Shown in pieces: positions 28,298-31,488 of a stretch of 32,029 bases of DNA. Position 1 is the first letter of the stretch. Every line of letters starts with the position of its first letter. The DNA is from a bacterium (GTDB lineage Bacteria; UBA8248): the NCBI GenBank assembly GCA_027622355.1, contig JAQBZT010000002.1, forward strand, positions 1 to 32,029, in the 5' to 3' direction. Position numbers and translations under genes: made by a program. The notes beneath the pieces are model-generated. The model saw only the letters and a program-made list of their open reading frames with translations. It made no database searches and was not told where the DNA came from.

Positions 28298-28389
28298 GAA
28301 GCTGGCGACCTCGCGCTGAAAGGAACGCTTATCCGGCTCAAATCGAGCGCGCTTTTATTATCGTATTTTATATCCGCCCGGCAAAACTC

Positions 28390-28531
28390 GGTAGTGGGTC
28401 CGTCTGCTTGTTTTTCTTGTCATTCCGAGCGCCGGAGGCGCGAGGAATCTGCTTTTCCACAGCAGATTCCTCAGTCGCTGCGCTCCTTCGGAATGACACC
28501 ACGGGTCCATTGTGCGAACTGACCCACTACC
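28390..28531. mobile_element. MITE-like element: 11-bp terminal inverted repeats (GGTAGTGGGTC / GACCCACTACC) enclosing a 79-bp imperfect palindrome (28419-28497)
   Basis: The TIRs are exact reverse complements. Inner arms GTCATTCCGA/TCGGAATGAC and GAGGAATCTGC/GCAGATTCCTC flank a 9-nt loop. No coding capacity. Confidence 0.4.
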
Positions 28532-28556
28532 CAAAATTCGCTTCTTTTTGTCTCTG

Positions 28557-28608
28557 GTACGGACGCAGCCATCGGCATGGATGCGTCCATACATATACTG
28601 GGACGCAT
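28557..28608. repeat. Three copies of a GGACGCA core in alternating orientation, spaced about 20 bp apart (14-bp imperfect inverted repeat plus a third copy)
   Basis: GTACGGACGCAGCC (28557-28570), its near reverse complement GGATGCGTCCATAC (28579-28592, 12/14), and GGACGCAT (28601-28608). Confidence 0.4.
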
Positions 28609-28730
28609 CATGGTTCCCTCTTCGGGGCGCCGCCCACGGGAGAGAAAATCGCCTGCGCGGGCGCGGGAATCTACCCGCTATGGGGTGTCCAACAAAACCC
28701 TGGGGCGGAGGACAATTCTCAAACAATAAT

Positions 28731-30398
28731 TTATTTACTATTCGCTAGGAGGGTTTTAAGTCTGTCTTTTATATTTGAATAAACAGCGGTCAATCTTGCC
28801 TTTGCCTTGTCGGTTAAAAGGGCGGTGTGTGCAAGAGCATCTCTGATAGGCTTATATTCAGCGGCATCTCTTGCAAGGCTTGCCTTCTTTAGGTCTTTTT
28901 TGGCATCAACGAGATTTGCAAGGTCGTCCATGGCCAGGTAGCTTAATTTTGTATTGTTTTTTCTAATCTCAATACTTAGATTCCCTTTATTTTTATTTTC
29001 GTCTTCTTTTTTTTCCCATTCCTTATATTTACTTGTTGCTTCCTTCGATAATTCCACTTTTTCTTCTTGTATGAATCTTCTGATCAGATTCTCTGAAATG
29101 AAACATTCGGCATAAGATGAAAAATTGTATGTTGCATCATCCGCCAGGTCATCAACCCAGCCATCGATTTTTTTCCTATTTTTTGAATCTTTAGGAAGAC
29201 CGTATTCTGCTGAAACAGCATTATATAGTTCTCCGGCTTTTCTATCTTTTCTGGAGATACTCGTGTCTTCCGAATCCCCGTCTTCGCGGTGTTTTCTTCT
29301 CCAAGGATCCCAATCAGCAAGGATTTTACTTATGATTTTATCTCTTAAGTAGTTTAAGAACTCTTGGTATTTGGGGTCATCTGCAATTATACCTTCGCGG
29401 CTACTAGTAAATCGATCCATTTGTTTATCATCAAGCGCATTATAGTGAATTTGACCATACAGATAACTTTCGGCCACCCTGGCCGTTGGTATGTGCCTTA
29501 ATATATCCCTTTCTCTTAAACGGCCATTTACAAATAGATCCACGCTAACCTTTTCGCCTGTGCCAAAGATATTAAGATCTCTGGGCTTTTCCACGGAAGC
29601 AATGAACCCTTTTATTCCACCTTTTACAGATATTTTTTTGCTTTCCTTAAGAGTAAATTTCTTTTTGAGTCGTGCAATGTATGGATCTTCTATGTCATCA
29701 ATTTCCCATAAAAATTGAGTCTTTTCTGCGAGATCATCTAGACATTCATGGGTTATTTTTTCTTTGTTAATAAAAATTTTAAAATTATTGTCAATGAGAG
29801 AAAATCGAAAATATAAAGCCACAATTTTTTTCAAAAATTCCAAGCTGTTCCTTATCCCATCATGGATATTTTTAAAATGGATAATGGTGCCCTTGGTATG
29901 CTTGACTGTCAGGTCCCCGAAGGTTTCTAATTTCCATCTTCCCAAAAGGTATTCTTGTGGTGTTAGGTCTTCGTCTATGGCGTTATCTAATTCACCATTA
30001 TCGATTAATCCGCCAATGTAACTTTGCCCCTTCTTTTTTGATATTACAGTAATTTTTTCTGCACACGACAGAAGCGCCAGTTTCCCAATACCTTTTCTTC
30101 CAATATACGGTCTCCCACCTGGAGAGGTTTCACTAATCTTTCGTTTTGAATATCCAATTTTCAAGAATTTATTTTGAAATTCATCCGCCGTCATACCGTC
30201 ACCGGTGTCTTTGATAAGAAAGCTGTTTTTCGTTTTATTGATATGAATGTGTCCTTCAGTAGCATCAGCATCCCAAGCATTCGATATTGCTTCACCGAGA
30301 ACTGTAGTGAAACTTCTATATAGATTTCTACCCAAATGGTTGAGAACACTCAGCGATATTTCAAATGAGAAATCTTCCTTCTTTGCTTTTTGTGTCAT
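28731..30398 (-). CDS. GHKL-superfamily ATPase (HATPase_c_3 / MORC-like) with a C-terminal helical domain carrying an R-x4-H (HEPN-like) motif
   Basis: Bergerat-fold motifs: N-box GEAISNAWDA, G1 box IKDTGDGM, G2 box GRKGIGKLA, and TKGTIIHF. A MORC-like middle region (VDLFVNGRLRERDIL). The C-terminus has YKPIRDALAHTALLT. Confidence 0.8.
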   Translation of the reverse strand: MTQKAKKEDFSFEISLSVLNHLGRNLYRSFTTVLGEAISNAWDADATEGHIHINKTKNSFLIKDTGDGMTADEFQNKFLKIGYSKRKISETSPGGRPYIGRKGIGKLALLSCAEKITVISKKKGQSYIGGLIDNGELDNAIDEDLTPQEYLLGRWKLETFGDLTVKHTKGTIIHFKNIHDGIRNSLEFLKKIVALYFRFSLIDNNFKIFINKEKITHECLDDLAEKTQFLWEIDDIEDPYIARLKKKFTLKESKKISVKGGIKGFIASVEKPRDLNIFGTGEKVSVDLFVNGRLRERDILRHIPTARVAESYLYGQIHYNALDDKQMDRFTSSREGIIADDPKYQEFLNYLRDKIISKILADWDPWRRKHREDGDSEDTSISRKDRKAGELYNAVSAEYGLPKDSKNRKKIDGWVDDLADDATYNFSSYAECFISENLIRRFIQEEKVELSKEATSKYKEWEKKEDENKNKGNLSIEIRKNNTKLSYLAMDDLANLVDAKKDLKKASLARDAAEYKPIRDALAHTALLTDKAKARLTAVYSNIKDRLKTLLANSK

Positions 30399-31450
30399 GT
30401 GTTTTCTCTAATGTGGGCATTAATGCTTCTTCCAATTATCTTGCCCAATTGGACGGGCACGGCATTCCCAATGTGTCTTCCCAGCTTTTTAAAATTTATA
30501 TCGGAAATTCTTTCATAAAACTTATAAGATTTTGGGAATGTTTGTAACAATGCGCCTTCACGTAAAGAGATAGCTCTATTTTGCCTTGGGTGTCCAAAAC
30601 GGCCCGTTCCGAAGCTGTAAAATTGTGTTGTAATTGTTGGGGATGGTTCGTCCCAACGCATTCTGCCGTATACGGAACTATAAGTTGCACCTGTTTTTTT
30701 TTGGTGACAGTCCGTTCTAAGTTTTTTGTCCCAATCTTTCCAGGAGCCGCCAGCTTTTGATTGTTTTATTCTTTGCTTGTTTAAAGACGATAATTTATAA
30801 GTGCGATGGAGAGGGTCCTTGTCGCAGGGTTTCCCGTCTTGTATTCTCGGCAACTTTCCTATGATGTCTTTGACTGTTTTATAATTATCTGGTTTTTGAG
30901 TTGGATCTATTAAATTTATTTCTCCAAGTTTTGATGCAAGCAAAACTAAACGTCTTCGATTTTGTGGGATTCTGTAATCTGGGCAATGAACTATTTTCCA
31001 AGCGACGTGATATTTTAGCGTTTCCAATTCATTAACGAAGTCACGGAATACTTTGTGCTTAATAATTTGGGGAACATTCTCCATAGAAATTATAGTAGGA
31101 CGAACTCCTTTAATAATCCTTGTGAAGTGATACAAAAGCCCCCATTTCTCATTTTCTTTGCGACTCTTCATTTTTTGAGTGTGCTTTGAAAATGGCTGGC
31201 AGGGTGCACAAGCAACTAATACCTTGATGCTTTTTTCTGGAAATAACCGGTTAATACTACTGGCGGATACCTTTTGGATTTCTTTGTGTATAAAAACGGA
31301 TTCATTATTCTTCTCAAATGAATATTGGCATGAGATATCGTTGTCAATACCAGCCATAACAGGAATGCCTGACTTCACTAATCCGTGTGTGAGTCCGCCA
31401 ACACCACAAAATAGATCAACGGCTGAGATTTTCATATTCATTTTTTTCAT
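30395..31450 (-). CDS. dcm: DNA (cytosine-5-)-methyltransferase
   Basis: All canonical C5-MTase motifs are present: I DLFCGVGGL, IV APCQPFS, VI SMENV, VIII QNRRRLVLLAS, IX AISLREGALLQTFP, X GNAVPVQL. The stop overlaps the ATPase start (ATGA). Confidence 0.95.
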   Translation of the reverse strand: MKKMNMKISAVDLFCGVGGLTHGLVKSGIPVMAGIDNDISCQYSFEKNNESVFIHKEIQKVSASSINRLFPEKSIKVLVACAPCQPFSKHTQKMKSRKENEKWGLLYHFTRIIKGVRPTIISMENVPQIIKHKVFRDFVNELETLKYHVAWKIVHCPDYRIPQNRRRLVLLASKLGEINLIDPTQKPDNYKTVKDIIGKLPRIQDGKPCDKDPLHRTYKLSSLNKQRIKQSKAGGSWKDWDKKLRTDCHQKKTGATYSSVYGRMRWDEPSPTITTQFYSFGTGRFGHPRQNRAISLREGALLQTFPKSYKFYERISDINFKKLGRHIGNAVPVQLGKIIGRSINAHIRENT

Positions 31451-31488
31451 ATACTGATCCTTGTTGTTACAGTTTAGTCAGATATGAT

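What the first reader, a model, noticed from the sequence alone, without database searches (positions are those of the whole stretch)
28731..29080. C-terminal domain of the GHKL ATPase carries an R-x4-H signature in a predicted helical bundle (possible HEPN RNase effector)
Seen: the last 115 or so residues read as alternating amphipathic helices (YAECFISENLIRRFI, LSYLAMDDLANLV, YKPIRDALAHTALLT, ARLTAVYSNIKDRLKTLL). They include R519-D-A-L-A-H524, encoded at 28827-28844 (AGAGATGCTCTTGCACAC on the minus strand). Established: HEPN ribonucleases are defined by an R-x4-6-H motif on a four-helix core. They are common effectors in abortive-infection, toxin-antitoxin, CRISPR-accessory and R-M-linked systems. 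Eukaryotic sacsin also combines HSP90/GHKL-like modules with a HEPN domain. Inference: this protein may couple ATP-dependent sensing to RNA cleavage. That would make the island a DNA-methylation-gated RNase system rather than a DNA-cutting R-M system.
Basis: partly seen in the sequence, partly recalled or inferred. Interest (0 to 1): 0.75.

Follow-up and report, generated by a model that had tools for sequence, protein, structure and literature searches.

The report
GHKL ATPase with HEPN-like tail
A horizontally acquired two-gene cassette pairs a cytosine DNA methylase with an Hsp90/MORC-like ATPase whose conserved C-terminal domain looks like a HEPN ribonuclease, so the "restriction" partner probably cuts RNA rather than DNA; fusions of this kind were predicted in 2008-2013 but never tested.

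Summary
R519-D-A-L-A-H524 is encoded at 28844..28827 (minus strand), in an all-helical C-terminal domain of the 555-aa ORF 28731..30398.

- **Conservation:** R519 and H524 are invariant wherever the region is present (48 of 49 rows, one lacks it). H524 is the only invariant histidine. Position 520 is always N or D. E436-N437-x-x-R440 is also invariant.
- **Fold:** AlphaFold2 gives a confident helical model (pLDDT 95). Its helix order matches the published HEPN layout. The only Foldseek PDB hits with target-normalised TM-score of 0.45 or more are HEPN proteins (HepT, PaREP1), but none is significant (best E 1.9).
- **Sequence:** no Pfam, PDB-sequence or Ymh-profile match. The HEPN assignment is likely, not proven.
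- **Context:** Dcm lies within 1.5 kb in 73 of 80 genomes from many bacterial and archaeal phyla, and Vsr within 2.5 kb in 55 of 80.
- **Relatives:** the N-terminal 370 residues and the partner methylase are homologous to HgiDII/BbrUII restriction systems, which carry a PD-(D/E)xK-like tail instead. A Neisseria relative (NmeAI type) carries a Pfam Ymh HEPN domain there.
- **Prior work:** paraMORC-HEPN fusions in restriction-modification neighbourhoods were described computationally in 2008 and 2013.

Verdict: a new variant of a known, untested kind. RNase activity and methylation gating remain inference.

The parts
30395..31450 (-). C5 cytosine DNA methyltransferase (Dcm), 351 aa, the partner gene of the cassette
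   Evidence: Pfam PF00145 E 1e-61 and TIGR00675 above cutoff. Best PADLOC model is DrmMII PDLC02651, E 9e-103. It is 49-51% identical over its full length to the Dcm partners of HgiDII/BbrUII-family enzymes.
30395..30398 (-). ATGA overlap: Dcm stop codon (TGA) overlaps the ATG of the GHKL-HEPN gene, suggesting translational coupling
   Evidence: Read directly from the sequence.
28731..30398 (-). GHKL-HEPN-like ORF, 555 aa plus stop
   Evidence: ORF list. More than 4800 homologues at E<=1e-5; the best 120 listed are 62-73% identical and about 550-565 aa (one 605 aa).
29799..30371 (-). GHKL (Bergerat-fold) ATPase domain, residues about 10-200. Motifs: I E36/N40/D43, II D64-x-G66-x-G68, III G100/G103/G105, IV G170-T171
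   Evidence: Pfam HATPase_c_3 E 8e-20. Motif residues are present in nearly all rows that cover them. Foldseek matches Hsp90/TRAP1/GRP94 and MORC2 at E about 1e-11.
29394..29798 (-). Alpha/beta middle (transducer, S5-like) domain, residues about 200-335, with a conserved NGRLRE / YGQIH / DRFTSSRE block
   Evidence: AF2 secondary structure. Foldseek alignments of more than 400 columns to the Hsp90 N+M and MORC2 ATPase modules. Residues 10-377 match positions 1-371 of NF050001.
29208..29375 (-). Helical linker, residues 342-397 (long helix 342-369, helix 383-397)
   Evidence: AF2 full-length model.
28734..29177 (-). C-terminal all-alpha HEPN-like domain, residues 408-555
   Evidence: AF2 pLDDT 95.2. 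Best Foldseek PDB matches are HEPN proteins HepT and PaREP1, not significant. The exhaustive HMM search finds it only at the C-terminus of 547-608-aa proteins, apart from shorter entries.
29079..29093 (-). E436-N437-L-I-R440: invariant Ex3R motif in the long helix of the domain
   Evidence: 49 of 49 for E436, N437 and R440 in the alignment of the query with 48 diverse representatives. HEPN families often carry an Ex3[KR] motif (PMC3710099).
28992..29006 (-). E465-x3-K469: second, less conserved Ex3K motif in the next helix
   Evidence: E in 36 of 49 and K/R in 35 of 49. Invariant among close homologues.
28827..28844 (-). R519-D520-A-L-A-H524: the Rx4H motif at the C-terminal end of helix 508-523/524; H524 is the first loop residue in the domain model and the last helical residue in the full-length model
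   Evidence: Sequence. Invariant R and H, with N/D at position 520. Position relative to helices.

Best explanation
ORF 28731..30398 encodes the toxic partner of a mobile, restriction-modification-like two-gene cassette. It is an Hsp90/MORC-type GHKL ATPase module (nucleotide-binding plus transducer domain). This is joined by a helical linker to a C-terminal HEPN-type, metal-independent RNase domain of a family that Pfam does not cover.

Proposed mechanism:
1. The protein dimerises.
2. The ATPase module engages DNA as an ATP-driven clamp.
3. Cognate sites methylated by the co-translated Dcm keep the enzyme off.
4. Unmethylated cognate DNA (a phage, a plasmid, or the host chromosome after loss of the cassette) switches on the paired R519/H524 sites.
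5. These cut cellular RNA and arrest growth, giving abortive infection or post-segregational killing.

Shown here: the domain architecture, intact ATPase motifs, invariance of the R[ND]xxxH and ENxxR residues, a helix order compatible with HEPN, conserved Dcm (and frequent Vsr) linkage, the absence of any recognisable DNA-nuclease domain, and homology of the chassis to HgiDII/BbrUII systems that carry a PD-(D/E)xK-like tail instead.

Inferred, not shown: RNase activity, dimerisation, DNA clamping, and gating by methylation.
For: - Motif and conservation.
- AF2 model of the domain: pLDDT 95, helices 419-445, 452-471, an insert, 508-523 with R519 near the helix end and H524 the first loop residue in this model (the lower-confidence full-length model ends the helix at 524), then 530-552. 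[quoted passage not shown]
- Foldseek PDB: the only matches with target-normalised TM-score of 0.45-0.56 are HepT (6m6u, 7bxo, 5yep, 6m6w) and PaREP1 (2q00). All other hits score 0.37 or less.
- The Neisseria relative, 27% identical over the N-terminal 370 aa, sits in a Dcm-GHKL-Vsr locus and ends in Pfam PF09509 Ymh, a HEPN family, with RNPVQH.
- HgiDII/BbrUII-family proteins (NF050001 above cutoff) share the N-terminal module. Their Dcm is 49-51% identical to the window's. Their tail carries 'WLLDPSW...RLDL...VIIDLKRP', PD-(D/E)xK-like by my reading of the sequence.
- Neighbourhood in 80 species-level genomes: Dcm within 1.5 kb in 73, immediately upstream on the same strand in 67; Vsr within 2.5 kb in 55.
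- The cassette is a 36-38% GC island in a 60-66% GC context. The two genes overlap by ATGA.
- The ATPase module resembles Hsp90/TRAP1 and DNA-bound MORC2.
- The HEPN mechanism uses the RNA 2'-OH, so an Rx4H active site implies an RNA substrate (PMC3710099).
Against: - No statistically significant structural match: best Foldseek E 1.9, probability 0.47. Nothing informative in BFVD.
- No sequence or profile link to any curated HEPN family: Pfam on one sequence and on 115 sequences, a PDB profile search, and hhalign against a shallow Ymh alignment.
- No model coordinates were available. I could not check that R519/H524 superpose on the HepT motif, or that E436/R440 lie next to them.
- No domain that could read a DNA sequence has been identified in the protein.
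- Four of the 80 loci have an apparently full-length gene with no Dcm within 6 kb: L012, L022, L029, L049.
- RNase activity, toxicity and gating are all untested.
Confidence: 0.5

Rival explanations
1. Guard model (PrrC/RloC-like). The HEPN RNase is held inactive by physical association with the Dcm methylase, not by reading methylation itself. It is released when a phage factor or a flood of unmethylated DNA inhibits or titrates the methylase. This is the model Anantharaman et al. proposed for paraMORC-Ymh fusions.
For: The proposal is explicit in PMC3710099. The ATGA overlap suggests stoichiometric co-expression. Dcm linkage is tight, 67 of 80 immediately upstream. No DNA-reading domain was identified in the GHKL-HEPN protein.
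Against: PrrC guards a complete restriction-modification enzyme, whereas this cassette has no separate restriction subunit. The sister HgiDII/BbrUII enzymes act directly on DNA with the same chassis. No interaction evidence was obtainable.
Confidence: 0.2
2. Repair-accessory model. The protein is a MutL-like matchmaker for the very-short-patch repair endonuclease Vsr that travels with Dcm. The C-terminal helical domain is mainly a dimerisation or nucleic-acid-binding module comparable to the MutL or Hsp90 C-terminal domains, not a toxin.
For: Vsr lies within 2.5 kb in 55 of 80 loci, and directly downstream on the same strand in 43. MutL is known to stimulate Vsr (cited in PMC2292703). The protein gives weak MutL hits.
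Against: The window itself and about a third of loci lack Vsr. A single invariant histidine inside an R[ND]xxxH motif, together with the invariant ENxxR, points to catalysis rather than packing. The homologous position holds a PD-(D/E)xK-like domain or a Pfam HEPN in relatives. Three loci place the gene inside DISARM defence operons.
Confidence: 0.1
3. Conventional type II restriction endonuclease. The protein cuts unmethylated DNA with a nuclease centre not recognised here, as the PADLOC 'REase_II' label would imply.
For: PADLOC REase_II models match at E 3.5e-43 and 4.4e-33. NCBIfam BbrUII/HgiDII matches at E 1e-86. The gene order is that of a classic Dcm-R(-Vsr) system.
Against: All these matches cover only residues about 10-390, the ATPase chassis. 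NF050001 scores 291.9 against a cutoff of 550 and covers positions 1-371 of 659. The PD-(D/E)xK-like tail of true family members is absent. The HEPN Rx4H chemistry needs a 2'-OH. No other invariant acidic cluster typical of metal-dependent nucleases was noted in the C-terminal 150 residues.
Confidence: 0.1
4. The C-terminal domain is a helical bundle that only resembles HEPN and has a different function, for example a regulatory or protein-interaction domain. The Rx4H match would then be convergent.
For: No significant structural or sequence match to any HEPN. Helical bundles give many spurious similarities.
Against: Several HEPN-specific features coincide: the polar residue after R, the motif position at a helix end, the Ex3R motif, an insert, and HEPN proteins ranking first in Foldseek. 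In addition, a bona fide HEPN occupies the same position in a homologue.
Confidence: 0.1

Closest known systems
NmeAI-type 'R' proteins: paraMORC GHKL ATPase fused to a Ymh (PF09509) HEPN domain, in Dcm-R-Vsr operons (Orlowski & Bujnicki 2008, PMC2441816; Anantharaman et al. 2013, PMC3710099)
   Same: Same gene order, Dcm then GHKL-HEPN then Vsr. The N-terminal GHKL plus middle module is homologous (27% identity over about 365 residues). Both have a C-terminal helical domain with R-[ND]-x3-H. Both are experimentally uncharacterised.
   Different: The C-terminal domain here is not matched by PF09509. It shows no profile-profile similarity to a shallow Ymh alignment. The partner methylase is only about 35-40% identical.
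HgiDII/BbrUII family type II restriction enzymes (NCBIfam NF050001). M.HgiDII methylates GTCGAC (PMC5867850)
   Same: The N-terminal 370 residues are homologous (E 1e-86). The partner Dcm is 49-51% identical over its full length. The two-gene layout is the same.
   Different: Family members are about 660-680 aa with a C-terminal tail of about 290 aa carrying a PD-(D/E)xK-like motif. Here that tail is replaced by a 150-aa HEPN-like domain. The score is below the family cutoff.
PrrC and RloC anticodon nucleases
   Same: An NTPase module is fused to a C-terminal HEPN RNase and functionally tied to a restriction-modification system. This is the analogy drawn in PMC3710099.
   Different: PrrC and RloC use ABC-type ATPase domains and guard a complete type I/Ic restriction-modification enzyme. 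Here the ATPase is of the GHKL type and the only partner is a methylase.
Sacsin (eukaryotic)
   Same: Hsp90-like ATPase modules combined with a C-terminal HEPN domain (PMC3710099). There is a weak hit to the sacsin N-terminal ATP-binding model NF047352 (25.8 bits).
   Different: The hit is below cutoff (50 bits). Sacsin is a giant multidomain chaperone with DnaJ and ubiquitin-like domains, and human sacsin's HEPN lacks the catalytic motif. There is no evidence of direct descent.
GHKL-nuclease defence proteins such as paraMORC3 / Shedu VcSduA (PMC12137116)
   Same: An N-terminal GHKL ATPase proposed to control a C-terminal nuclease effector. VcSduA has a demonstrated anti-phage role.
   Different: The effector there is a PD-(D/E)xK DNase (DUF4263) and no methylase partner is needed.

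Membership tests
HEPN superfamily | Conserved Rx4-6H motif with a polar residue (N/D/H) immediately after R | tested here: met
   R519-D-A-L-A-H524. R and H are invariant, and position 520 is N or D in every sequence that covers the site.
HEPN superfamily | [quoted passage not shown] | tested here: met
   In the AF2 domain model (pLDDT 95), helix 508-523 ends at the motif and H524 is the first loop residue; the full-length model ends the helix at 524. The helix is followed by helix 530-552 and preceded by a loop and short-helix insert. Compared with the description in PMC3710099. This is judged from secondary-structure order, not from a 3D superposition.
HEPN superfamily | Second conserved acidic residue, typically in an Ex3[KR] motif upstream | tested here: met
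   E436-x3-R440 is invariant (49 of 49). E465-x3-K469 is partly conserved.
HEPN superfamily | Significant structural similarity to a solved HEPN domain | tested here: inconclusive
   HepT and PaREP1 are the best and the only near-global Foldseek matches (target-normalised TM-score 0.45-0.56), but E is 1.9 or more.
HEPN superfamily | Sequence or profile match to a curated HEPN family | tested here: not met
   No Pfam HEPN family at E<=10 for one or 115 sequences. No PDB sequence hit with a profile.
HEPN superfamily | Metal-independent endoRNase activity dependent on R and H | not testable with these tools
   Needs biochemistry.
Ymh HEPN family (PF09509) | Match to the PF09509 profile | tested here: not met
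   No hit. The Neisseria homologue's tail hits at E 2.9e-25. hhalign of A3 against a 5-sequence Ymh alignment gave probability 0.3%.
GHKL / paraMORC ATPases of restriction-modification systems | Bergerat-fold motifs I-IV intact | tested here: met
   PF13589 E 8e-20. E36, N40, D43, D64, G66, G68, G100, G103, G105, G170 and T171 are conserved.
GHKL / paraMORC ATPases of restriction-modification systems | Transducer (S5-like) domain following the GHKL domain | tested here: met
   Foldseek aligns more than 400 columns to the Hsp90/TRAP1 N+M and MORC2 ATPase modules at E about 1e-11. The full-length model is of moderate confidence, pLDDT 74.
GHKL / paraMORC ATPases of restriction-modification systems | Conserved neighbourhood with DNA methylase and Vsr genes | tested here: met
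   Dcm in 73 of 80 loci and Vsr in 55 of 80. Matches the description in PMC2292703.
BbrUII/HgiDII restriction enzyme family (NF050001) | Full-length match above the curated cutoff, including the C-terminal PD-(D/E)xK-like region | tested here: not met
   291.9 bits against a cutoff of 550, covering profile positions 1-371 of 659 only. True members score 650-800 bits over the full length and carry the nuclease-like motif.
Type II restriction-modification system | A DNA endonuclease domain in the partner of the methylase | tested here: not met
   No nuclease family was detected in the protein. PADLOC REase_II matches cover only residues 9-390.
DISARM | DrmA, DrmB and DrmC core genes present | tested here: not met
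   No DrmA, DrmB or DrmC homologue in the window. Only the methylase resembles DrmMII. Three other loci do carry DrmABC next to the GHKL-HEPN gene.

The most novel reading that the evidence does not exclude
The cassette is an epigenetically gated suicide or addiction module. An Hsp90/MORC-like ATP-driven DNA clamp reads the C5-methylation state of cognate sites and, on meeting unmethylated DNA, licenses a HEPN RNase. This would be a restriction-modification system whose 'restriction' arm destroys RNA rather than DNA. It would have arisen by swapping the PD-(D/E)xK-like tail of an HgiDII-type enzyme for a HEPN domain on the same methylase plus ATPase chassis.
Probability: 0.35. Interest if true: 0.75.

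Novelty: new variant of a known kind. Interest (0 to 1): 0.5.

Why it matters
If the C-terminal domain is an active RNase, this widespread family links DNA-methylation status to RNA cleavage. The family has more than 4800 homologues and occurs in many bacterial and archaeal phyla. That link was predicted in 2013 but never tested.

The sister relationship with HgiDII/BbrUII enzymes offers a natural experiment. The methylase lineage and ATPase chassis are the same, and only the tail differs (PD-(D/E)xK-like versus HEPN-like). This should help show how GHKL modules control nuclease effectors.

It is also a practical annotation point. PADLOC labels this protein 'REase_II' and NCBIfam gives a below-cutoff match to a restriction-enzyme model, yet no DNase domain is present.

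Tried and rejected
- Pfam, NCBIfam and PADLOC on the full protein and on the C-terminal 175 aa found no HEPN family. Only N-terminal matches appeared.
- Pfam on all 115 members of the C-terminal alignment at E<=10 gave only scattered chance hits.
- A profile search of PDB sequences at E<=10 returned nothing.
- A single-sequence search of PDB returned only weak Hsp90 N-domain hits.
- Foldseek against BFVD viral models was uninformative.
- hhalign against a Ymh alignment gave probability 0.3%. The Ymh alignment had only 5 close sequences, because the last homologue search returned 4 hits. This is a weak test.
- The exhaustive HMM search with the domain profile did not reach any other architecture among the 150 hits shown. 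It therefore gave no bridge to known HEPN families.
- A search for Vsr or a C-protein in the window found none.
- Rfam, tRNA, repeat, promoter and terminator scans of the island found nothing that marks its borders.
- GTCGAC depletion in the window is not significant: 3 observed against 8.6 +/- 3 expected.
- The apparent stand-alone HEPN proteins of about 180 aa appear to be contig-end fragments or mis-called parts of larger genes. The one case I checked, L088, has a frameshift between the GHKL and HEPN parts.
Full report
**1. The observation**

The minus-strand ORF 28731..30398 encodes 555 residues. On the minus strand, AGAGATGCTCTTGCACAC occupies 28844..28827 and encodes R519-D-A-L-A-H524.

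The upper coordinate of the finding (29080) is one base out of frame. Residue 441 starts at 29078.

A bare Rx4H is expected about 0.6 times in a protein of this composition. A second, unconserved one occurs at 297-302. The motif alone therefore means nothing, and the test is conservation.

- A search with residues 381-555 found 131 homologues.
- In a 115-sequence alignment, R519, H524, P517 and A521 are invariant.
- An exhaustive HMMER profile search of 1.84 billion cluster representatives found 237 hits.
- I aligned the query with the 48 representatives of at least 430 aa. R519 and H524 are present in all but one row, which lacks the region. Position 520 is N (27) or D (21). E436, N437 and R440 are invariant.
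- H524 is the only invariant histidine in the protein.

**2. What the protein is**

- *ATPase module.* Residues 29-126 match Pfam HATPase_c_3 (E 8e-20). The Bergerat motifs are conserved: E36/N40/D43, D64xG66xG68, G100/G103/G105 and G170-T171.
- *Full-length model.* The AlphaFold2 model is of moderate confidence (pLDDT 74). It aligns over more than 400 columns to the Hsp90/TRAP1/GRP94 N+M modules and to the DNA-bound MORC2 ATPase module, at E about 1e-11. The N-terminal two thirds are thus a GHKL plus transducer module of the Hsp90/MORC/MutL type.
- *Linker.* A helical linker (342-397) follows.
- *C-terminal domain.* The domain spans residues 408-555. Modelled alone with 115 sequences it reaches pLDDT 95.2. 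Its helices are at 408-417, 419-445, 452-471, two short helices at 484-498, then 508-523 and 530-552.

**3. Is the C-terminal domain HEPN?**

The reference description (Anantharaman et al. 2013, PMC3710099) lists these features:
- a four-helix up-down core;
- frequent inserts between helices 2 and 3;
- a polar N/D/H residue after the R;
- often a second acidic residue in an Ex3[KR] motif upstream.

The domain model places R519 near the end of helix 508-523 and H524 as the first loop residue (the full-length model ends the helix at 524). A long C-terminal helix follows, and a loop plus short-helix insert precedes. Position 520 is always N or D. An invariant E436-x3-R440 lies in the long upstream helix, and a less conserved E465-x3-K469 in the next helix. 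I could not decide from secondary structure alone which upstream helices correspond to core helices 1 and 2.

Foldseek against the PDB gave no significant match (best E 1.9). The top hits are nevertheless the HepT toxins of HEPN-MNT systems (6m6u_H, 7bxo_F/H, 5yep_C, 6m6w_H) and the PaREP1 HEPN (2q00). These are the only hits with target-normalised TM-score of 0.45-0.56. All other hits score 0.37 or less, apart from fragment matches in the viral library.

Sequence methods gave nothing:
- no Pfam HEPN family for one or for 115 sequences;
- no PDB sequence hit with a profile;
- hhalign against a small Ymh alignment was negative.

I had no access to model coordinates. A residue-level superposition of the catalytic motif could not be made.

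My reading is that the domain is probably HEPN (about 0.7). It would be a family not covered by Pfam and found only in this architecture. In the representative search, every listed hit of at least 500 aa is 547-608 aa long with the domain at the C-terminus.

**4. Context**

The gene starts inside the stop codon of the upstream gene, an ATGA overlap at 30395-30398. That gene is a C5 DNA methyltransferase at 30395..31450 (PF00145, E 1e-61). The pair forms a 36-38% GC island in a 60-66% GC region. Its neighbours, by reading the translations, look like housekeeping genes: LexA, DinB, an RNA methyltransferase and a cupin. There is no Vsr, C-protein, tRNA, Rfam hit or flanking repeat.

The family is large. 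More than 4800 homologues score E<=1e-5, and the best 120 listed are 62-73% identical. Among 185,579 species-level genomes, 227 stretches encode the domain. The 80 best come from many bacterial phyla and from Thaumarchaeota, Bathyarchaeota, Woesearchaeota and Pacearchaeota.

In those 80 loci:
- a Dcm homologue lies within 1.5 kb in 73, and immediately upstream on the same strand in 67;
- a Vsr homologue lies within 2.5 kb in 55, and directly downstream on the same strand in 43.

The canonical module is therefore Dcm, GHKL-HEPN, then often Vsr. The window carries the minimal two-gene form. The same layout is seen in metagenomic contigs and on a Paracoccus plasmid.

**5. Relatives that fix the interpretation**

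*(a) HgiDII/BbrUII family.* Residues 10-377 match positions 1-371 of the 659-position NCBIfam model for BbrUII/HgiDII restriction enzymes (E 1e-86, 291.9 bits, below the 550 cutoff). PADLOC REase_II models likewise match only residues 9-390.

True family members from Halobaculum and Burkholderia plasmids score 650-800 bits over the full length. By direct reading of the sequence, their extra C-terminal tail of about 290 aa contains 'WLLDPSW ... RLDL ... V(I/V)(I/V)(D/E)LKRP', a PD-(D/E)xK-like signature. Their Dcm partners are 49-51% identical to the window's Dcm over the whole length. M.HgiDII methylates GTCGAC (PMC5867850).

*(b) NmeAI type.* A Neisseria gonorrhoeae relative is 27% identical over the N-terminal 365 residues and is a frameshifted pseudogene. 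It sits in a Dcm-GHKL-Vsr locus, and its C-terminal piece matches Pfam Ymh PF09509 at E 2.9e-25 and contains RNPVQH. This is the NmeAI type. M.NmeAI methylates CCGG, and the system comprises modification, restriction and patch-repair genes (PMC4676702 and PMC3787668).

The same methylase plus ATPase chassis thus carries, at one position, a PD-(D/E)xK-like domain, a Pfam-recognised HEPN, or the present domain. This effector swapping is the strongest contextual argument that the present domain is an effector, and that HEPN is a legitimate occupant of that slot.

**6. What was already known**

- Iyer et al. 2008 (PMC2292703) defined the paraMORC GHKL families of restriction-modification operons and their linkage to cytosine methylases and Vsr.
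- Orlowski and Bujnicki 2008 (PMC2441816) noted GHKL N-termini in R.HgiDII and in R.NmeAIP, the latter with a Ymh C-terminus.
- Anantharaman et al. 2013 classified Ymh as HEPN. They stated that it is fused to paraMORCs in restriction-modification neighbourhoods and proposed a PrrC/RloC-like role.

My literature searches found no experimental test.

The kind of protein is therefore known by prediction. What differs here is a distinct C-terminal family unrecognised by Pfam, and its sister relationship to the HgiDII lineage.

**7. Mechanism**

HEPN catalysis uses the substrate 2'-OH and yields 2',3'-cyclic phosphate. If R519/H524 form the active site, the substrate is RNA.

The protein has no recognisable DNase domain, and its only constant partner is a methylase. 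The most economical model is that the ATPase module monitors DNA, and the Dcm-dependent methylation state keeps the RNase off. Unmethylated cognate DNA, or loss of the cassette, would then trigger RNA cleavage and growth arrest.

Every functional step in this model is inference. The rivals are:
- a guard model, with inhibition by binding to Dcm;
- a MutL-like helper for Vsr repair;
- a cryptic DNase;
- a non-HEPN helical domain.

These are weighed in the rival section. Points that trouble the main model:
- no DNA-reading domain has been identified;
- four loci have an apparently full-length gene with no Dcm within 6 kb.

**8. Side observation**

In three of those Dcm-less loci (L012, L022, L029), the gene directly follows DrmB-DrmC, with DrmA also upstream in L012 and L029 (L022 is cut at the contig end). 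These are the DISARM core genes. The window's Dcm best matches a PADLOC DrmMII model. This ties the family to defence systems, but I did not pursue it beyond those loci.

**9. Verdict**

- The HEPN interpretation is partly supported: likely, not proven.
- The system-level idea is plausible and had been proposed in the literature for a sister family.
- Novelty: a new variant of a known but untested kind.
- Interest is moderate (0.5). It would be higher if the methylation-gated RNase mechanism were demonstrated.

Noticed in passing
L012 950-5367; L022 3-3251; L029 58-6453: In three genomes that lack an adjacent Dcm, the GHKL-HEPN gene directly follows DrmB-DrmC, with DrmA also upstream in L012 and L029 (L022 is cut at the contig end). 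These are the DISARM core genes (PADLOC E down to 0 for L029; tblastn for the others). The window's own Dcm best matches the PADLOC DrmMII model PDLC02651. The family may therefore also serve as a DISARM accessory.
   Followed up: partly
L090 3456-5489; L091 3495-5501: Bona fide BbrUII/HgiDII-family enzymes carry a C-terminal 'WLLDPSW ... RLDL ... VIIDLKRP' signature, which looks PD-(D/E)xK (Shedu/DUF4263-like). The 2008 classification left this domain unassigned. Their Dcm partners are about 50% identical to the window's Dcm.
   Followed up: partly
window 28731-31460: The two-gene cassette is a sharp low-GC island (36-38% against 60-66% around it). It has no tRNA, integrase, flanking direct repeats, Vsr or C-protein, and lies between a lipoprotein-like gene and a cupin gene. 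How it inserted is unexplained.
   Followed up: partly
window 28298-28730: This roughly 430-bp non-coding stretch downstream of the cassette occupies the place where Vsr sits in most relatives. It contains a 14-nt inverted repeat (28390-28403 / 28518-28531) but no Rfam hit and no Vsr remnant detectable by tblastn.
   Followed up: partly
L015 1162-6456: A tandem arrangement: Dcm, then a second more distant GHKL gene (29% identity, apparently split into several ORFs), then Vsr, followed directly by a GHKL-HEPN gene with no Dcm of its own.
   Followed up: no
L082, L089, L088: L082 and L089 hold N-terminally truncated GHKL-HEPN remnants with no Dcm nearby. L088 has a frameshift between the GHKL and HEPN parts. 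That frameshift explains why a stand-alone HEPN protein of about 180 aa appears in the protein database for that genome.
   Followed up: partly
window 1-32029: GTCGAC, the M.HgiDII target, occurs 3 times against 8.6 +/- 3.0 expected from shuffles. This is low but not significant.
   Followed up: yes
L029 6455-7159; L008 2567-3286: An uncharacterised 235-aa protein encoded directly downstream of the GHKL-HEPN gene in L029 has a 35%-identical homologue next to the Dcm/GHKL-HEPN cassette on the Paracoccus plasmid. It has no Pfam or PADLOC match.
   Followed up: no
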